A DNA stretch of 64,000 bases from the NCBI GenBank assembly GCA_037379345.1, contig CM074520.1:9238001-9302000 (forward strand), read 5' to 3'. The stretch's first letter is position 1. Every line of letters begins with the position of its first letter. This DNA comes from Perna viridis (lineage: Eukaryota). Of this stretch, positions 48,001-64,000 are shown one piece after another. Made by a program: the position numbers.

Positions 48001-51000
48001 ATTCTCAGAGAAAAACGAAGCGGAGTTACCGTTCGTTAAAAAATGTCCTATTTTTAAAATTCATATAGTTTCTAGCCTTATTAGATTTGTTTGTTTGTTG
48101 GGGTTTAACGTCAGAGCAGCACTATTTCAGCTATATTCAGACGATGAACATGAAATGGATGATAAAATGAACATGAACGGATGATGCAATGAAAAAAAGG
48201 ATTGGACACAAGGATAAAAGGGTCGACAAATTTTGATTGCCACTCGAAAAAGGGGGATGGGTAAGGTCGGGCAATTTAGCCTCCTGTGGCGGAGTGCAAA
48301 GGTTCCTACTCCTATCGAATACCACAGCAGGGTTCTTTAACATGCAAGGAATATGACATCTTTCCTAACACGCTGCACCACTATGGTTTGCGGTCAGGTT
48401 TTCCGTATTATAGCCTGATAACTCCAGCATATAACATGCCAGGGGTACCCCATTCCACCACCTGGGGCACACATCCCAGTTTCTCTGTGGGTAGAGCGCC
48501 TAGCCCCAGGCTAGGTTTCTTAGCACTATTTAGTCGCCTTTTACGACTAGCTTAGCGCTGCTGCACGCCTTGTCAGAGGAGTATATATATGAAAAACTAG
48601 GCATAGTATAAACAGCATTAAATAGCAAGCGGACATGTCAGAGAGCACACATAATAATCAAATCTGGAAACAAAATGATTTAATGATACTTTTAAGATAC
48701 AAAAAAAAATCGAACAAGTATGTAAGAATTGCTATTCTTGAAGTTGAATGCTTTGTGGATGTTTTTTTCTTTTATAGGGGTTTTCATTTTATCGTGAGAT
48801 AAGTGATGTTTTATTTGTTGACTTATTTCATTATAATGTGTAAAATAATGGAGAATGACGTCCCTGTTATATTAGGTATTTGAACTGATGCTAGCTAGAT
48901 ACTTGAGTTTGCTATCCTTAATGTTGATTACAGGAGTTTTCAAATTGATCAATCGTTTGAATGGACAACTAACTAATCATTTTGTTTTGTTACAGTCAAC
49001 TTTATTCTGATGAAGCTATCCAGCTTAATAATGCATTACAGGATATAGTTCATGGGCTGGGAGGCTCCACCGTGCTACCCCTCCATTCATCAACTTCATG
49101 GTGAATTTAAGGTTCCTTTATACCTCCAATTACCGAATCAATTTGTCGCAAAGAAAATTTCTGAATCTTTTTCAGTATAAGGCTATATTTGTACCCACTG
49201 TGTCAAAAAAGCCAAGGTTGTTGTGATTAAATTGTTCAAGCGTCACAACTTTGCTGGTATAGCATGTGTGAACGAACTTTACCAATTAAGATTTCATCAT
49301 GTAGCCCTCAGCCTTACAATGGCACCATAAACATTGCGGTAACACTACGAATTTTGGGGTAAAACGAAAATAAAATGTACCCCCACCCCGCCAAAATCTC
49401 GCTTAAATTAACATATTTTTCAATGTTAAAACCCCTAGAGTATGTATGTTTCAGTAATACTTATTTAGTATTTTCTGTTTATTGTTATCACAATTTATGA
49501 GTCGTGGGTTCCTTTGATGAATTTCGGCGATTTTCGTAGTCAGAATTTATCAAAAGTACAAAAAATGGATTTTCCGTAAAAAGTCACATAAATTAGACTC
49601 TACAAGTTATTGCTCAGCTAAAACATTCTAAAATTGGTATCATTCGATAGATAATTTAGTTTTCAAAGTAGTCAAGCATTACCTTTACCGTAAAAAATCG
49701 CTTTATGAATCAATAAACATTCACATTTTTTCAACCGATACGAGGAACTTAGATACAGATAAACTTGTAAACGATTAATACGTACGAGTATCGAACACTC
49801 TATACTTATGTCAATATTCTTCACAAAGAACTGAAAGCTCAATACTCACCCAATAAGTCGACTAAACTGTTTAATAGGTTTATCCGTAAGGGATAAAATT
49901 ACGATAATGTCCAACCATTAAAGATAGCCTTTTTTGAACTATGGAATTGGTATTAACATTGACTCACTCAAAGGGTCGCGACATAAAAACGAACACAATA
50001 CATTTACAGTTCTCTTCATGATATGGGTTTTGTCCGTATTGTAGGACTTACGATGTACCGTGGTTCTCAACCCTGCATGGGAAGAATTAGGATTGATCCT
50101 AAATCCAATAATGTAGGTTTAAACTAGCCTAACTGACGCTTGAATGTCAGTTATCTGCTAGTATTCCTTTGTTTGTGCATCTGTGTAATGCAAAATCAAG
50201 GGACCCAGACCTTTTCAACTGATTTTATGTATGTTTACTTATGTAATATTTTTATCACAGTAACGAGTTTTTGAAAGACAGGTTTGTGATCACACCAAAC
50301 TACTTTAACCCCGCTGCATTTGGTGCGCCTATTTCAAGTCAGGAATTTTTGGTCTCTGTATTGTTTCGTGTTCACTTTCAATTTAGTTTATGTTGCTGGA
50401 GTATATAGAGGCAAATATTTCACTGCGCCTGTGGAAAATGTTGTTTCTTGGCCATCTGCACCCGCCAAATGGCAGCAATTCCTCGTCGTTCATTGAAGAC
50501 CTTTGGTGGCCTTGAGAAGATGTTTTTCATCACGGTGGGTTTGATGTTTTTTGGGCATATTCACAATATATACATTCTTCTTATATTTTAACTGAAAGTG
50601 CATTCATCGATTAAATAATCATAATTAATTATTGATACAGGACAATAACAAACTTTGCTAAATGTCTAGCTATTGTCAGATGTATACCATCAATGCCAGA
50701 ATTACTTTATGTTTCAATTGAACTTCATTTTGGTTATGCAAAAATGCTAAATTATTTACAGTAAACTATACTTTTGTATCCCCGTTTAAATTTGATTGCC
50801 ACTCTCGTATGACCTTTTTGGTTTGTTTACGTACAATATTAAATCTAACTTTCGTTTCAAGTAGGAAGTAAAATAGATCGAATGTGAAGAACATGGATAA
50901 TTGTGACATTTGCGATTCGGAGTCGGATTTCAAATGCTGTGATCATTGTAAATGTAAATGTTGTGAACAATGTTTTCCTCAACATCAAAATAATGGTGCA

Positions 51001-61000: not shown

Positions 61001-64000
61001 TGTTTGTTTTTAACTTTTGTGATGCTTCGCTAGAAGTGCATAGACAAGATAAATGATAATCATCAATTGTCCACCATGATTAATTGGGAACCTCAAACTT
61101 CCGTGAAGTCTTAGGTGATCAAACATGACATGTTTGTATTAATAATAAACAGTAAATGCCACTAACTGAATATTGTTTCTTCATGGATTTTGTTTTTATT
61201 TACTATGTAAAGCATGGAACAAAAAGAAAAAGATATGTTAAACATGCAACAAAGATATGAAGCAGATGTTGAACAGAAAAACTCGGAAATTACTTATCTG
61301 AATCAGCAACTAGCTGAAATCTCAAAAAGGTATCTTTTAAATTACAATATCTTTTGATTTACTAGCACAAGAGAAATATGAAATTCCTCGTGAGCAGAAT
61401 AAATCATTACTTCCCTAGCTAAGTAAAGTTTTGTTTATAACTTGTATTACCCTTTCTCTTTGGATAAGTAATTATATTTTGAACACCACTTGTAATAGTA
61501 AAACAATGGGTAGTACATTTTAACTTTACTAAAGTCATACATAGATTTACATATAATAAATAAGAAGAAGTTACGCTTATTCACAAGTTTTTATCAAATC
61601 ATGTCTATACTCACATTTATATTTTGTTAACTTCGTTGTAAAAGAATGGCCATTTTGTTTATTAATGTTGTGATGAAGCTTAGAAAATCACTCCTAATTT
61701 ACTGAGTCTTCATTTTCGATTACCTTTCTTTTTTCAATTCAGTTTTTTTTTTCAATAGTCGTATTTATACTGTATATACTGTATATAGTAGAATAATATT
61801 TGTCTTTATTTACTGAAAATTTTAATAAATGTTAAAAAGATTGAAATGTCAATCAATAGTACACTACCTACTATGTAACACTTCCGATAAGAGTCATACA
61901 AAATGTGACGTGAAAAAGTAACCAAAGGAACCAAGTTATACTCGTAATCAAACGAATGTAATCCAGGGACAAAGACCACACATGGAAAACAGACATAGAC
62001 AACAAAGAACATTGAGTAACTAAAATCATACATACACAGTAACAAAAGCAAAAGAGCAACTCGATTTTGGTTATAAATCCTACATATTTGTATCTTCTTT
62101 GCATTATTTAATGTTTAATCATCAAGACTTATAAACAACTTAAATACAAAAATAAAAATGTATATCCTTGTACCGGATACGTAACATATTACGAAATTTG
62201 AATGATTCTTACAAAAGCTGCTACTTACAATGTAACTATATATCGATTAGTTCAAAGAATTAATTTTCTACTTAGATGTATAATCTTTCATTTGCAATCA
62301 ACTTGATGCAATTAAAAATATGATAATGCAAAACGTATGGAAAGTATTATTGCATTTATTGTTGCATATTTCATTCAATGTTGACATAAAAAATAGTAAA
62401 TCATTAATATTCATTTCATAATTTCCCGACACAACTAATTCGGTTACTAAGAACATAACAATCTGGGGTTTCCAACCTTTATACTTGCTTCGATGCATTG
62501 AATGACGAACTTATTTGAAATAACTTTTAAGGGAAAAAATTGCTAATACGATGCTGACAACGGTTAATTCCGAATTGTCGTCAAGATGTAACCAAGTTTC
62601 TGAGATGGAGAACCATATAAGATTATTAAAATCAGAGAAAGACAATTTACAAACAAGGTAAGCAAGACTGTACCTGTTATAAAAATCCGTGGTAGATTTA
62701 TAGTTCCTTGTGCCTCTTGATTCATTCATACATACAAAAAAGGCCTACAAAGTCGATTTAAAACCGATCTGTTTAAATATGTTAATACATTATATTTTGA
62801 CACTATCAACAGTATTTGTGTTTGTTTGTTCAGTTTGAAATCATGATATCTGGGCATAGTGAAAGGTTTAGAAACAATATTTAGCGAATTTATCACAAAA
62901 AAAACTTAATTTAAAAAAAAGATAATAACAGAATTTTAAGATATTATAAAAAAAAAGTCTTTTGCAGTAAATGGACGTTAATTGATCGAAATAACACATG
63001 TATGGTATAAACGACCACAAGGTGTAATATGTCCGATGATGTGTTTTCCATTACCTGTTGCACGAATGAACCCTACGTAGACATTGATTAAGCAATCTAA
63101 CTGTCTAGTCAATCCCACTTTTCCCTTTGATACCTTTTGAAATATATCCGGCGTATAAATTCATAAATTTATAAAGTCGAATTTCCTATTTGAAAGCTAG
63201 AATAATTTCATCACTCAAATAAAACAATCGCTTAATTTGTTTACGTAAAGTTTGAATTTTTTTTGTGAATTGTATATTAGAGAGTCGAACATTTTGCTTG
63301 TGTTTTTAGGGCGTTCATTTTCTCTTCAGACTGTCAATTTTGTCTATTTAAATATTTTCATTTTAATTCTTCATTTAAAGCATATTTATTATTTTAGACT
63401 GAGTTGCTTTGCTGGAGATACGTTGACAAAGGGTAATCCAGCTATTACTGACCTATCTGATCCCAATAGACCCATGAAGATTGGTGAGCGATATGGGGAG
63501 CTCTACGATAATGATTGGACCGATGCTATGGAAAAAGTTGAAACAATAAAACAAAACTTTCCCGACAAAGATGGCTCAGAAATCGAAGAAATTTTGATTA
63601 AATACCTTCATAGGATATTAAAAGTAAGTGTTTTTTCCGGGATCATTATTTGAATACAATTAAATATAAACGTCTATAAATGACATTTAATACAAAACTA
63701 CGTAGTAAAGCCATGTAAATTTTAAACATTTTCTCTATTGCAAAATCAAGGGATAAAATACCCCCCCCCCCACACACACACACACACACACACACAGCAA
63801 TTAAGTTCAGTACAAATTGATTTCATGATATATGCAATGTACGAGAGTACAGCAACGTAATATTAAATTTGCTTAAATGAGGATAATTTCTGCACATACA
63901 TGTAAGAATAAAACTACTGGTATATTTATGTTTTTTTTTAACATGACATTCCTAAGTATAGACTACGAATATAATCATGGTAATCATGTTTTGAAATGCA

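What the first reader, a model, noticed from the sequence alone, without database searches (positions are those of the whole stretch)
50893..63623. RING-less TRIM-like N-terminus fused to a Mieap-like C-terminal region
Seen: two divergent B-box-like zinc fingers, ~310 aa of coiled coil, then the NPAITDLSDPNRP..GE.Y.ELYDNDWTDA motif, all joined in frame. Established: B-box/coiled-coil modules normally end in SPRY, NHL, FN3 and similar domains, and Mieap (SPATA18) acts in mitochondrial quality control and has no B-box. Inference: exon shuffling (a single large B-box exon joined at a phase-2 junction) created a lineage-specific architecture possibly linking innate-immune scaffolding to mitochondria.
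Basis: partly seen in the sequence, partly recalled or inferred. Interest (0 to 1): 0.65.

Follow-up and report, generated by a model that had tools for sequence, protein, structure and literature searches.

The report
Mussel B-box–coiled-coil–MIEAP family gene
This is the first eleven exons of a mussel-type gene that joins a RING-less TRIM-like zinc-finger head and a long coiled coil to a Mieap-like tail, one ordinary member of a multi-copy family already annotated in Mytilus genomes.

Summary
On the + strand an ATG-started 608-nt exon (50893-51500) encodes two B-box-type zinc fingers and a helical stretch. Nine short exons (99-141 nt, 353 codons, charged and proline-free) follow, then a 226-nt exon (63398-63623) carrying the NPAITDLSDPNRP…ELYDNDWTDA motif. 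All ten introns are phase 2.

The last exon is 64-71% identical to 28 Mytilus proteins (54-70% over all 37 hits, 33 with Pfam MIEAP). A profile of ten Mytilus N-termini scores exon 1 at 60.5 bits, against -3.7 for the best of 1000 shuffles. The family profile matches TRIM28 B-box1/B-box2/coiled coil at E 4e-15. No RING pattern occurs in any frame of the window.

The architecture is not unique. 25 of 141 retrieved proteins carry the same head; 23 are Mytilus-named and two unnamed. In the MIEAP tree all 22 B-box rows kept share one well-supported branch with the window's exon.

The MIEAP domain is cut by the window end. No transcript was available. The mitochondrial or immune role is inference only.

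The joined exon model was not translated, searched or folded. The window looks like a bivalve genome, not human.

The parts
50893..51500 (+). Exon 1 (608 nt). It holds the start codon, a B-box1-like finger, a B-box2 finger and about 115 residues of helices. It ends 2 bases into a codon.
   Evidence: An in-frame stop lies just upstream, and this is the first ATG. The donor is TGG|gtaagt. An independent family N-terminal profile scores it 60.5 bits, against -3.7 for the best of 1000 shuffles. The AF2 model has pLDDT 74.4 and pTM 0.63, with helices at 88-132, 140-167 and 173-201.
50902..51003 (+). First zinc finger (B-box1-like)
   Evidence: It is the only match to the recalled B-box1 pattern in six frames of the window. 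Columns C4, C16, C19, C24, C27, H31 and C37 are invariant or nearly so in alignment A1. It has no Pfam hit of its own. The family profile aligns from position 4 with the TRIM28 and MID1 B-box1 regions.
51049..51141 (+). Second zinc finger (B-box2)
   Evidence: Pfam zf-B_box scores 26.3 bits (cutoff 24.1) when 51037-51165 is scanned alone, and 18.2 bits within the whole exon. C53, C65, C68, C73, C76 and H83 are invariant in A1.
54822..54920 (+). Exon 2 (99 nt), charged helical
   Evidence: AG acceptor, GT donor, phase 2 in and out. Composition.
56366..56473 (+). Exon 3 (108 nt), charged helical
57223..57339 (+). Exon 4 (117 nt), repeat unit type A
   Evidence: It matches exon 6 at 115 of 117 nt.
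57823..57939 (+). Exon 5 (117 nt), repeat unit type B
   Evidence: It matches exon 7 at 115 of 117 nt.
58595..58711 (+). Exon 6 (117 nt), recent copy of exon 4
59202..59318 (+). Exon 7 (117 nt), recent copy of exon 5
59993..60133 (+). Exon 8 (141 nt), charged helical
   Evidence: The acceptor at 59993 is the one that keeps phase 2; the acceptor at 60000 does not.
61213..61329 (+). Exon 9 (117 nt), older copy of the 117-nt unit
   Evidence: It matches the other four copies at 89-97 of 117 nt.
62532..62657 (+). Exon 10 (126 nt), end of the coiled coil
   Evidence: It ends ...SEKDNLQT plus 2 bases, matching the family's ...EKDDLQT(R).
63398..63623 (+). Exon 11 (226 nt). It holds the conserved pre-domain motif and the first ~50 residues of the MIEAP domain, and ends on a codon boundary.
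   Evidence: 37 proteins hit at E 2.9e-27 to 2.3e-9. Identity is 64-71% for the 28 best (54-70% overall), and 33 carry PF16026. Its own Pfam MIEAP match is only 13 bits, covering profile positions 2-30 of 195.
63435..63527 (+). Motif NPAITDLSDPNRP...ELYDNDWTDA
   Evidence: GNP.ITDL occurs in 45 of 141 retrieved proteins and LYDN.WTD in 85 of 141.
56595..59666 (+). About 2.2 tandem copies of a ~1.37-kb unit that holds two 117-nt exons
   Evidence: Self-blast aligns 56595-58286 with 57960-59666 at 93.9% identity over 1710 columns, at an offset of 1365. Repeat families D1-D6 show the same.

Best explanation
The stretch is the 5' part (11 exons, about 630 codons) of one protein-coding gene. The gene belongs to a multi-copy mussel family with this architecture: B-box1, B-box2, a TRIM-type helical segment, a long variable coiled coil, and a MIEAP (PF16026) C-terminal domain. 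There is no RING. The rest of the MIEAP domain lies beyond the window.

Shown:
- Both ends are homologous to the two ends of the Mytilus family.
- The head is TRIM-type.
- The intron phases are uniform.
- The coiled coil has grown by tandem duplication of a symmetric 117-nt exon.

Inferred mechanism (my odds about 0.3). The B-box and coiled-coil part self-associates as in TRIM proteins and builds a rod or lattice. Lacking a RING, it has no ubiquitin-ligase activity of its own. The rod presents MIEAP domains. In human Mieap the corresponding structured, hydrophobic C-terminal half drives partition into mitochondrial condensates and is proposed to hold cardiolipin-type phospholipids. On this reading the protein is a self-assembling scaffold for a lipid or organelle surface. 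Its rod length varies between paralogs, and its head evolves much faster than its tail.
For: Tail:
- Exon 11 hits 37 proteins; 35 are Mytilus-named, one is unnamed and one comes from a bacterial MAG. Identity is 64-71% for the 28 best, and 33 carry PF16026.
- In 12 of 16 relatives scanned, MIEAP spans profile positions 1-194 at 56.7-71.3 bits.

Head:
- Exon 1 scores 60.5 bits against a profile built without it; the best of 1000 shuffles scores -3.7.
- The family profile A1 hits 32 PDB sequences at E<=0.01, most of them TRIM or Midline chains. The best is TRIM28 (6h3a) at E 4.1e-15, with profile positions 4-193 on chain residues 99-300. The MID1 tandem B-box (2jun) hits at E 4.5e-6.
- The AF2 model of exon 1 finds TRIM5 B-box2/coiled-coil constructs as its five best PDB matches: prob 1.00, TMt 0.60-0.67, E 1.3e-3 to 1.1e-2.
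- No RING pattern occurs in any frame of the window. The relatives start at the same Met.

One gene:
- The exons share a strand and order, and all ten introns are phase 2.
- 24 retrieved proteins carry both ends.
- One of them, P0050 (785 aa), sits on a contig of only 2713 nt. Its coding sequence is therefore uninterrupted there, as in a spliced transcript.

Clade:
- In a tree of the MIEAP region, all 22 B-box rows, 12 further Mytilus rows and the window's exon lie on one side of a branch with SH-aLRT 98.

Variable rod:
- The middle part is 51-607 residues long, median 338, in the 21 of 24 members that have the exact motif.
- There are five copies of the 117-nt exon and a 93.9%-identical 1.37-kb tandem unit.

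Function of the tail:
- PMC10845071 (passages) covers the C-terminal hydrophobic region, mitochondrial partition and cardiolipin binding of human Mieap.
Against: - No transcript or junction read for this locus was available. The joined model was not translated, searched or folded.
- On its own sequence the window reaches neither Pfam cutoff in whole-exon scans: B-box 18.2 bits against 24.1, MIEAP 13 against 27.
- Exon 1 alone found no relative in the word-based search. It found one weak hit (E 5.6e-4) among 1.84 billion representatives. Its membership therefore rests on a small family profile.
- No fold match reaches E<=0.001.
- Exons may be missing in the 3.3-kb and 1.4-kb introns after exons 1 and 2. 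Relatives have a variable linker there that has no counterpart in the model.
- The recent duplicate could be an assembly artefact.
- Inside the B-box clade, 12 Mytilus rows lack the head. Most are short models, but P0003 (697 aa), P0047 (780 aa) and P0114 (1019 aa) are long.
- Nothing tested here bears on self-association, lipid binding, mitochondria or immunity.
Confidence: 0.75

Rival explanations
1. There are two neighbouring genes: a short B-box gene ending near 51500, and a separate coiled-coil/MIEAP gene starting downstream. The phase match would then be coincidence.
For: Coiled-coil/MIEAP proteins without a B-box are the common form in bivalves: 116 of 141 retrieved proteins lack the head. 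Inside the clade, P0003, P0047 and P0114 are long and lack it. There is no transcript evidence here. A 3.3-kb intron separates exon 1 from exon 2.
Against: Exon 1 has no in-frame stop before a consensus donor (TGG|gtaagt) and ends mid-codon. None of exons 2-11 begins the model with an ATG in a start context; they all begin 1 base before a codon. 24 relatives carry both ends in one protein, one of them on a transcript-sized contig. The window's MIEAP exon falls in the B-box-bearing clade.
Confidence: 0.07
2. The locus is a decaying or mis-assembled copy. This could be a pseudogene of a fast-turnover family, or a model inflated by a falsely duplicated 1.37-kb segment (two haplotypes laid in tandem).
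For: The two units are 93.9% identical. From general knowledge, that is within the range of allelic divergence in highly heterozygous bivalves. The family is large and its head diverges fast: median pairwise identity is 23% for the head and 56% for the tail. The B-box2 has lost the usual C-x2-H spacing. The C-terminal exons are out of view.
Against: All eleven exons are open, with AG/GT sites and a kept phase. All metal-ligand columns of both fingers are kept. The duplicated exons differ at 2 of 117 nt each and stay open.
Confidence: 0.15
3. The protein is a TRIM-like immune or stress sensor with no tie to mitochondria. In the bivalve expansion the MIEAP fold would have been re-used as a recognition or effector module, as SPRY or NHL domains are in other TRIMs.
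For: PMC8382680 (passages) reports a bivalve-wide expansion of the MIEAP family: 807 genes in OG24, 53.1 per bivalve against 0.6 in other taxa. Retrieved relatives form many paralogous branches within Mytilus and other bivalves. The head diverges fast. PMC5549309 (passages) reports the MIEAP Pfam domain as enriched among gill-specific genes of a mussel.
Against: The conserved part is the MIEAP tail, not a variable recognition surface. No expression or challenge data were examined. The only experimental knowledge of the domain is mitochondrial.
Confidence: 0.3

Closest known systems
Annotated Mytilus B-box/coiled-coil/MIEAP proteins (for example P0012 M. edulis 826 aa, P0011 M. galloprovincialis 673 aa, P0021 806 aa, P0025 M. 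californianus 781 aa, P0018 M. coruscus 668 aa)
   Same: The order of parts is the same: Met directly before finger 1, two fingers, an FL..W helix motif, a variable coiled coil...LQTRLSS..GNP.ITDL..ELYDN.WTDA, then MIEAP. The window's exon 11 is 57-69% identical to these proteins over profile-aligned columns, and exon 1 is 19-35% identical.
   Different: No retrieved protein is close enough to be the same gene. The best identity is 71% in the most conserved exon and 31% in exon 1. The window's B-box2 has C-H where the relatives have C-x2-H. The window's middle part is built largely of five copies of one 39-codon exon.
TRIM/RBCC proteins with solved B-box/coiled-coil structures (TRIM28 6h3a, TRIM25 4cfg, TRIM5 4tn3/5eiu, TRIM72 7xyz, MID1 2jun)
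   Same: A tandem B-box1 and B-box2 is followed directly by a long helix. The family profile matches these structures at E 4.1e-15 to 4.5e-6, and the fold matches TRIM5 B-box2/coiled coil.
   Different: There is no RING. The C-terminal domain is MIEAP instead of SPRY, NHL, FN3 or PHD-bromo. The coiled coil is far longer than a TRIM's. Dimerisation was not shown.
Vertebrate Mieap / SPATA18
   Same: Coiled-coil regions are followed by the structured C-terminal half that Pfam models as PF16026. The start of that domain is in the window.
   Different: It is single-copy in most animals (0.6 per non-bivalve genome). No human sequence was fetched or compared here.
Bivalve-wide coiled-coil/MIEAP expansion (OG24 of PMC8382680)
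   Same: The tail and pre-domain motif are the same. GNP.ITDL is also found in pectinid and unionid proteins. Long coiled coils are shared, and source names such as 'myosin heavy chain-like' and 'golgin-like' reflect them.
   Different: None of the 48 rows from outside Mytilus kept in the tree has the B-box head: no non-Mytilus-named protein has a head-profile hit or as many as 6 Cys in its first 100 residues.

Membership tests
TRIM / RBCC | N-terminal RING finger | tested here: not met
   A recalled C3HC4 pattern has no match in any of the six frames of the window. The ORF opens right after a stop, with Met 3 residues before finger 1, as in the relatives. The family profile aligns to TRIM28 only from chain residue 99 on. 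An upstream RING exon spliced into the 5' end is not formally excluded.
TRIM / RBCC | B-box1 zinc finger | tested here: inconclusive
   The ligand spacing fits the recalled consensus, and the columns are conserved in the family. The family profile covers B-box1 of TRIM28 and MID1. However, the window's own first finger matches no Pfam family. Relatives P0046 and P0051 reach PF22586 at 28.6 and 29.2 bits (cutoff 27).
TRIM / RBCC | B-box2 zinc finger | tested here: met
   zf-B_box scores 26.3 bits against a cutoff of 24.1 for 51037-51165 alone, but 18.2 bits in the whole exon. The first ligand pair is C-H instead of C-x2-H.
TRIM / RBCC | Coiled coil directly after B-box2, forming an antiparallel dimer | tested here: inconclusive
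   The helix directly after the finger is predicted (residues 88-132). The fold and profile matches extend through the TRIM coiled coil. Dimer formation could not be tested.
MIEAP (Pfam PF16026) | Match to the domain model above its gathering score | tested here: inconclusive
   The window's exon 11 scores 13 bits (E 0.1) against profile positions 2-30 of 195, with a cutoff of 27. The domain is cut by the window end. Relatives 64-71% identical in this exon score 52-71 bits over positions 1-194.
MIEAP (function of vertebrate Mieap) | Mitochondrial localisation, cardiolipin binding, condensate formation | not testable with these tools
   These features are known only from PMC10845071 for the human protein (passages).
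Mytilus B-box/coiled-coil/MIEAP clade | The family's N-terminal region and its MIEAP-side region, in that order, in one gene | tested here: met
   The N-terminal profile scores 60.5 bits against at most -3.7 in 1000 shuffles. Exon 11 lies inside the clade behind a branch with SH-aLRT 98. The exons share a strand and have compatible phases. The joining itself is inferred, not observed.

The most novel reading that the evidence does not exclude
In mussels the MIEAP domain has taken the place that SPRY or NHL domains hold in other TRIMs. This would have created a lineage-specific, RING-less TRIM-like family that self-assembles through a fast-evolving B-box/coiled-coil head. Its rod length would be tuned by duplication of symmetric 39-codon exons, and it would dock onto cardiolipin-type lipids. 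That would make it a sensor or scaffold for damaged mitochondria, or for membranes of intracellular invaders. The architecture is annotated in databases, but none of the papers found in two full-text searches describes it.
Probability: 0.15. Interest if true: 0.6.

Novelty: new member of a known kind. Interest (0 to 1): 0.35.

Why it matters
The finding shows how a large bivalve gene expansion (MIEAP) gained a new head domain in one lineage. It also shows how symmetric phase-2 exons let a coiled coil grow by tandem duplication. For annotation, the locus should be called a B-box/coiled-coil/MIEAP family gene, truncated by the window. It is neither a TRIM E3 ligase nor a Mieap orthologue. The functional idea of a lipid-docking, self-assembling scaffold can be tested but is not supported by any data here.

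Tried and rejected
- One search failed on a frame slip of mine. The coordinates were corrected.
- Single-exon Pfam scans were weak. The coiled-coil exons gave only sub-threshold matches to unrelated helical families.
- Exon 1 in the word-based search for longer proteins gave no hit. Exon 1 against 1.84 billion representatives gave one hit, P0038, a 115-aa unnamed B-box fragment at E 5.6e-4.
- Exon 1 against PDB sequences as a single sequence gave nothing below E 0.01. 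Only the family profile gave significant TRIM hits.
- tblastn of the 38 proteins then held against the whole window found only exons 1 and 11. It found no second family member, and no further MIEAP exon in 63624-64000.
- Open frames at 56829-56975 and 58199-58345 inside the duplicated unit were considered as exons. They were rejected because no GT donor keeps the phase.
- The acceptor at 60000 for exon 8 was rejected in favour of 59993 on phase.
- The atlas search with relative P0021 gave no usable feature hit. Its structure matches were all low (TM 0.18-0.28 by query), to a molluscan MIEAP cluster and to TRIM-like clusters. These were treated as leads only.
- Complex prediction with two copies of exon 1 gave no verdict (score 0.00, alignment not used by the tool). 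It is not evidence either way.
- The first attempt to measure the middle-part length from profile envelopes gave negative values, because of spurious secondary matches. It was redone from the motif position.
- Genome contigs was not used, because it holds only bacteria and archaea.

Full report
What the window is. The window is AT-rich (27-36% G+C in 2-kb steps). It carries transposon ORFs of a kind I recall from bivalve genomes. Every named relative of the gene studied here is a bivalve protein, and the closest are from Mytilus. I take it for a mussel-like bivalve genome, not human. A run of N at 39400-39542 was left alone.

Gene model, exon by exon. On the + strand an ORF opens after a stop, and its first ATG is at 50893. 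Using AG/GT sites and the open frames, I place eleven exons:
- 50893-51500 (608 nt)
- 54822-54920 (99 nt)
- 56366-56473 (108 nt)
- 57223-57339, 57823-57939, 58595-58711 and 59202-59318 (117 nt each)
- 59993-60133 (141 nt)
- 61213-61329 (117 nt)
- 62532-62657 (126 nt)
- 63398-63623 (226 nt)

Exon 1 leaves two bases of a codon, and every internal exon is a multiple of three. All ten introns are therefore phase 2, and the last exon ends on a codon boundary. The joined model was not translated, searched or folded, so 'joined in frame' rests on arithmetic and on homology across one junction. That junction is between exons 10 and 11. Exon 10 ends ...SEKDNLQT plus two bases and exon 11 starts one base before LSCFAGDTLTKGNP... 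The family reads ...EKDDLQTRLSSVAGEKLTKGNP..., and the split codon, read from the bases printed, would give the same arginine.

The tail. Exon 11 alone (75 residues) hits 37 proteins at E 2.9e-27 to 2.3e-9. Identity is 64-71% for the 28 best and 54-70% overall. Of the 37, 35 are named as Mytilus, one is unnamed, and one comes from a bacterial MAG. 33 carry Pfam MIEAP. The window's own Pfam match is only 13 bits, on profile positions 2-30 of 195, because the domain is cut off. In full-length relatives 225-239 residues run from the GNP.ITDL motif to the end. The window holds 63 of these, and neither tblastn nor the ORF list shows a further exon in 63624-64000. Its second half (...ELYDNDWTDA) is the start of the Pfam domain. 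Its first half is a conserved pre-domain stretch that is also present in pectinid and unionid proteins.

The head. Exon 1 is much more divergent:
- The word-based search found nothing.
- The exhaustive search found one weak hit.
- Aligned with Mytilus proteins found through the tail, exon 1 is collinear with their N-termini. All metal-ligand columns of both fingers and a later FL..W motif are kept.
- A profile built from ten of those N-termini, without the window row, scores exon 1 at 60.5 bits. The best of 1000 shuffles scores -3.7.
- The second finger reaches Pfam zf-B_box (26.3 bits, cutoff 24.1) when scanned alone. The first does not match Pfam, though the first finger of relatives P0046 and P0051 reaches PF22586.
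- The family profile matches TRIM28 B-box1/B-box2/coiled coil at E 4.1e-15 (profile 4-193 on chain 99-300). It also matches TRIM25, TRIM3, TRIM5, TRIM72 and the MID1 tandem B-box. No chain matched the MIEAP part.
- An AF2 model of exon 1 (pLDDT 74.4, pTM 0.63) has TRIM5 B-box2/coiled-coil constructs as its five best PDB matches. The E-values are modest, 1.3e-3 to 1.1e-2.
- Recalled consensus patterns match B-box1 once and B-box2 once in six frames of the window, both in exon 1. A RING pattern matches nowhere.

'RING-less TRIM-like' is therefore a fair description. By the RING criterion the protein is not a TRIM.

The middle. The nine internal exons give 353 codons. They are 32-69% E/K/Q/R/D, have no proline and at most one glycine. 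No coiled-coil predictor was run, and source names of relatives ('myosin heavy chain-like', 'interaptin-like', 'golgin-like') are only suggestive. Five of the exons are copies of one 117-nt unit, at 89-97 of 117 nt between older copies. A ~1.37-kb unit holding two of them is repeated in tandem at 93.9% identity (56595-58286 against 57960-59666), with the paired exons differing at 2 of 117 nt. Because the exons are symmetric in phase, each duplication lengthens the rod by 39 residues without breaking the frame. Whether the youngest duplication is real or an assembly artefact cannot be told from the sequence. In the family the middle part ranges from 51 to 607 residues (median 338; 21 of 24 members with the exact motif).

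How common the architecture is. A search with the MIEAP region of relative P0021, among proteins of 443-1411 residues, gave 134 hits, of which 120 were listed. They come from Mytilus, scallops, oysters, clams, unionids, Pinctada, Tegillarca, Dreissena and Mya.

Of all 141 proteins held, 25 match the N-terminal profile. The same 25 are the only ones with six or more cysteines in their first 100 residues. 23 are Mytilus-named, from five species, and two are unnamed.

I built a quick maximum-likelihood tree of the MIEAP region from 99 proteins plus the window's exon. 40 of 140 proteins were left out because their best single profile stretch covered fewer than 150 positions. In this tree all 22 B-box rows, 12 further Mytilus rows and the window's exon lie behind one branch with SH-aLRT 98. 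This fits one gain of the head in a mussel lineage, followed by losses or truncated gene models. Three cautions apply: the tree is unrooted, the sample was drawn by similarity to a Mytilus query, and the label needs at least 8 changes on the tree.

One member, P0050, is a 785-residue protein on a 2713-nt contig. It is thus uninterrupted, as in a spliced transcript, which is indirect evidence that head and tail are joined in mRNA in a relative. Within the family the head evolves far faster than the tail: median pairwise identity is 23% against 56%, and the head is lower in 272 of 276 pairs.

What is in print.
- PMC8382680 (passages read) reports the bivalve expansion of 'Mitochondria-eating protein' orthogroups: OG24 has 807 genes, 53.1 per bivalve against 0.6 elsewhere. 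It lists a B-box orthogroup separately.
- PMC5549309 (passages) lists the MIEAP Pfam domain as enriched among gill-specific genes of Mytilisepta virgata.
- Two full-text searches found no paper that describes B-box and MIEAP in one protein. The only two papers holding both words treat them apart. Their supplements could not be opened.
- Public annotation already shows the combination, with names such as 'B box-type domain-containing protein' and 'tripartite motif-containing protein 66 [Mytilus galloprovincialis]' alongside PF16026.

How it may work. The following are shown: a TRIM-type head without a RING, a long charged helical middle of variable length, and the start of a MIEAP domain. The rest is inferred. 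The head and rod would self-associate as TRIM B-box/coiled coils do, and would display MIEAP domains. For human Mieap, PMC10845071 (passages) reports that the C-terminal hydrophobic structured half is needed for concentration in mitochondrial condensates. The same paper proposes that this half holds cardiolipin-type lipids, while the coiled-coil and disordered half makes weaker contacts. A lipid- or organelle-docking, self-assembling scaffold is thus my best guess, at odds of about 0.3. A recognition role in immunity or stress, unrelated to mitochondria, is about as likely. Nothing here tests either. The one complex prediction gave no verdict (see Tried and rejected).

Verdict. The architecture is real and, as far as sampled, restricted to mussels. 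However, this locus is one ordinary, window-truncated member of an already annotated multi-copy family. It is not a unique shuffling event, and the immune-mitochondrial link is speculation.

Noticed in passing
window 56595-59666: There are about 2.2 tandem copies of a 1.37-kb unit (93.9% identity over 1710 columns). Each unit holds two 117-nt phase-symmetric exons. Five copies of that exon exist in all, including 61213-61329. This is either a real recent duplication or two haplotypes assembled in tandem.
   Followed up: partly
window 56829-56975 and 58199-58345: Open frames (IKHRRE...KLYEQQVQTEERTAQ...) lie inside the duplicated intron sequence, with a weaker third copy near 59580. No GT donor keeps the phase, so they were not taken as exons. 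They could be a relic exon or part of a repeat.
   Followed up: partly
window 60492-60654: A perfect 78-bp tandem repeat (2.1 copies, 100% identity) lies in the intron between exons 8 and 9.
   Followed up: no
window 8217-10583 (- strand): A 788-codon open frame begins with a hydrophobic, membrane-span-like segment. It has a sub-threshold match to the cadherin cytoplasmic C-terminal domain (27.3 bits, cutoff 31.5). It may be the large last exon of a protocadherin-like gene.
   Followed up: partly
window 27023-27997 (+), 23550-23993 (+), 19747-20169 (-): A retroelement-like ORF has a very weak RVT_1 match (16.1 bits). Two fragments share its C-terminal motif. These are dispersed transposon remains upstream of the gene.
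   Followed up: partly
proteins P0037 and P0054: Two MIEAP-domain proteins are recorded in MAGs named Candidatus Endonucleobacter, from deep-sea mussels; one sits on a 254-kb contig. This is either host-to-parasite gene transfer or host contamination of the bins. One literature search listed no paper linking the two in its top 8 of 46.
   Followed up: no
family alignment: The B-box head evolves much faster than the MIEAP tail: median pairwise identity is 23% against 56%, and the head is lower in 272 of 276 pairs. This is the reverse of the pattern I recall for immune TRIMs, where the C-terminal domain is the variable part.
   Followed up: partly
window 39400-39542: A run of 143 N (gap or mask). 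It was not filled or looked up.
   Followed up: no
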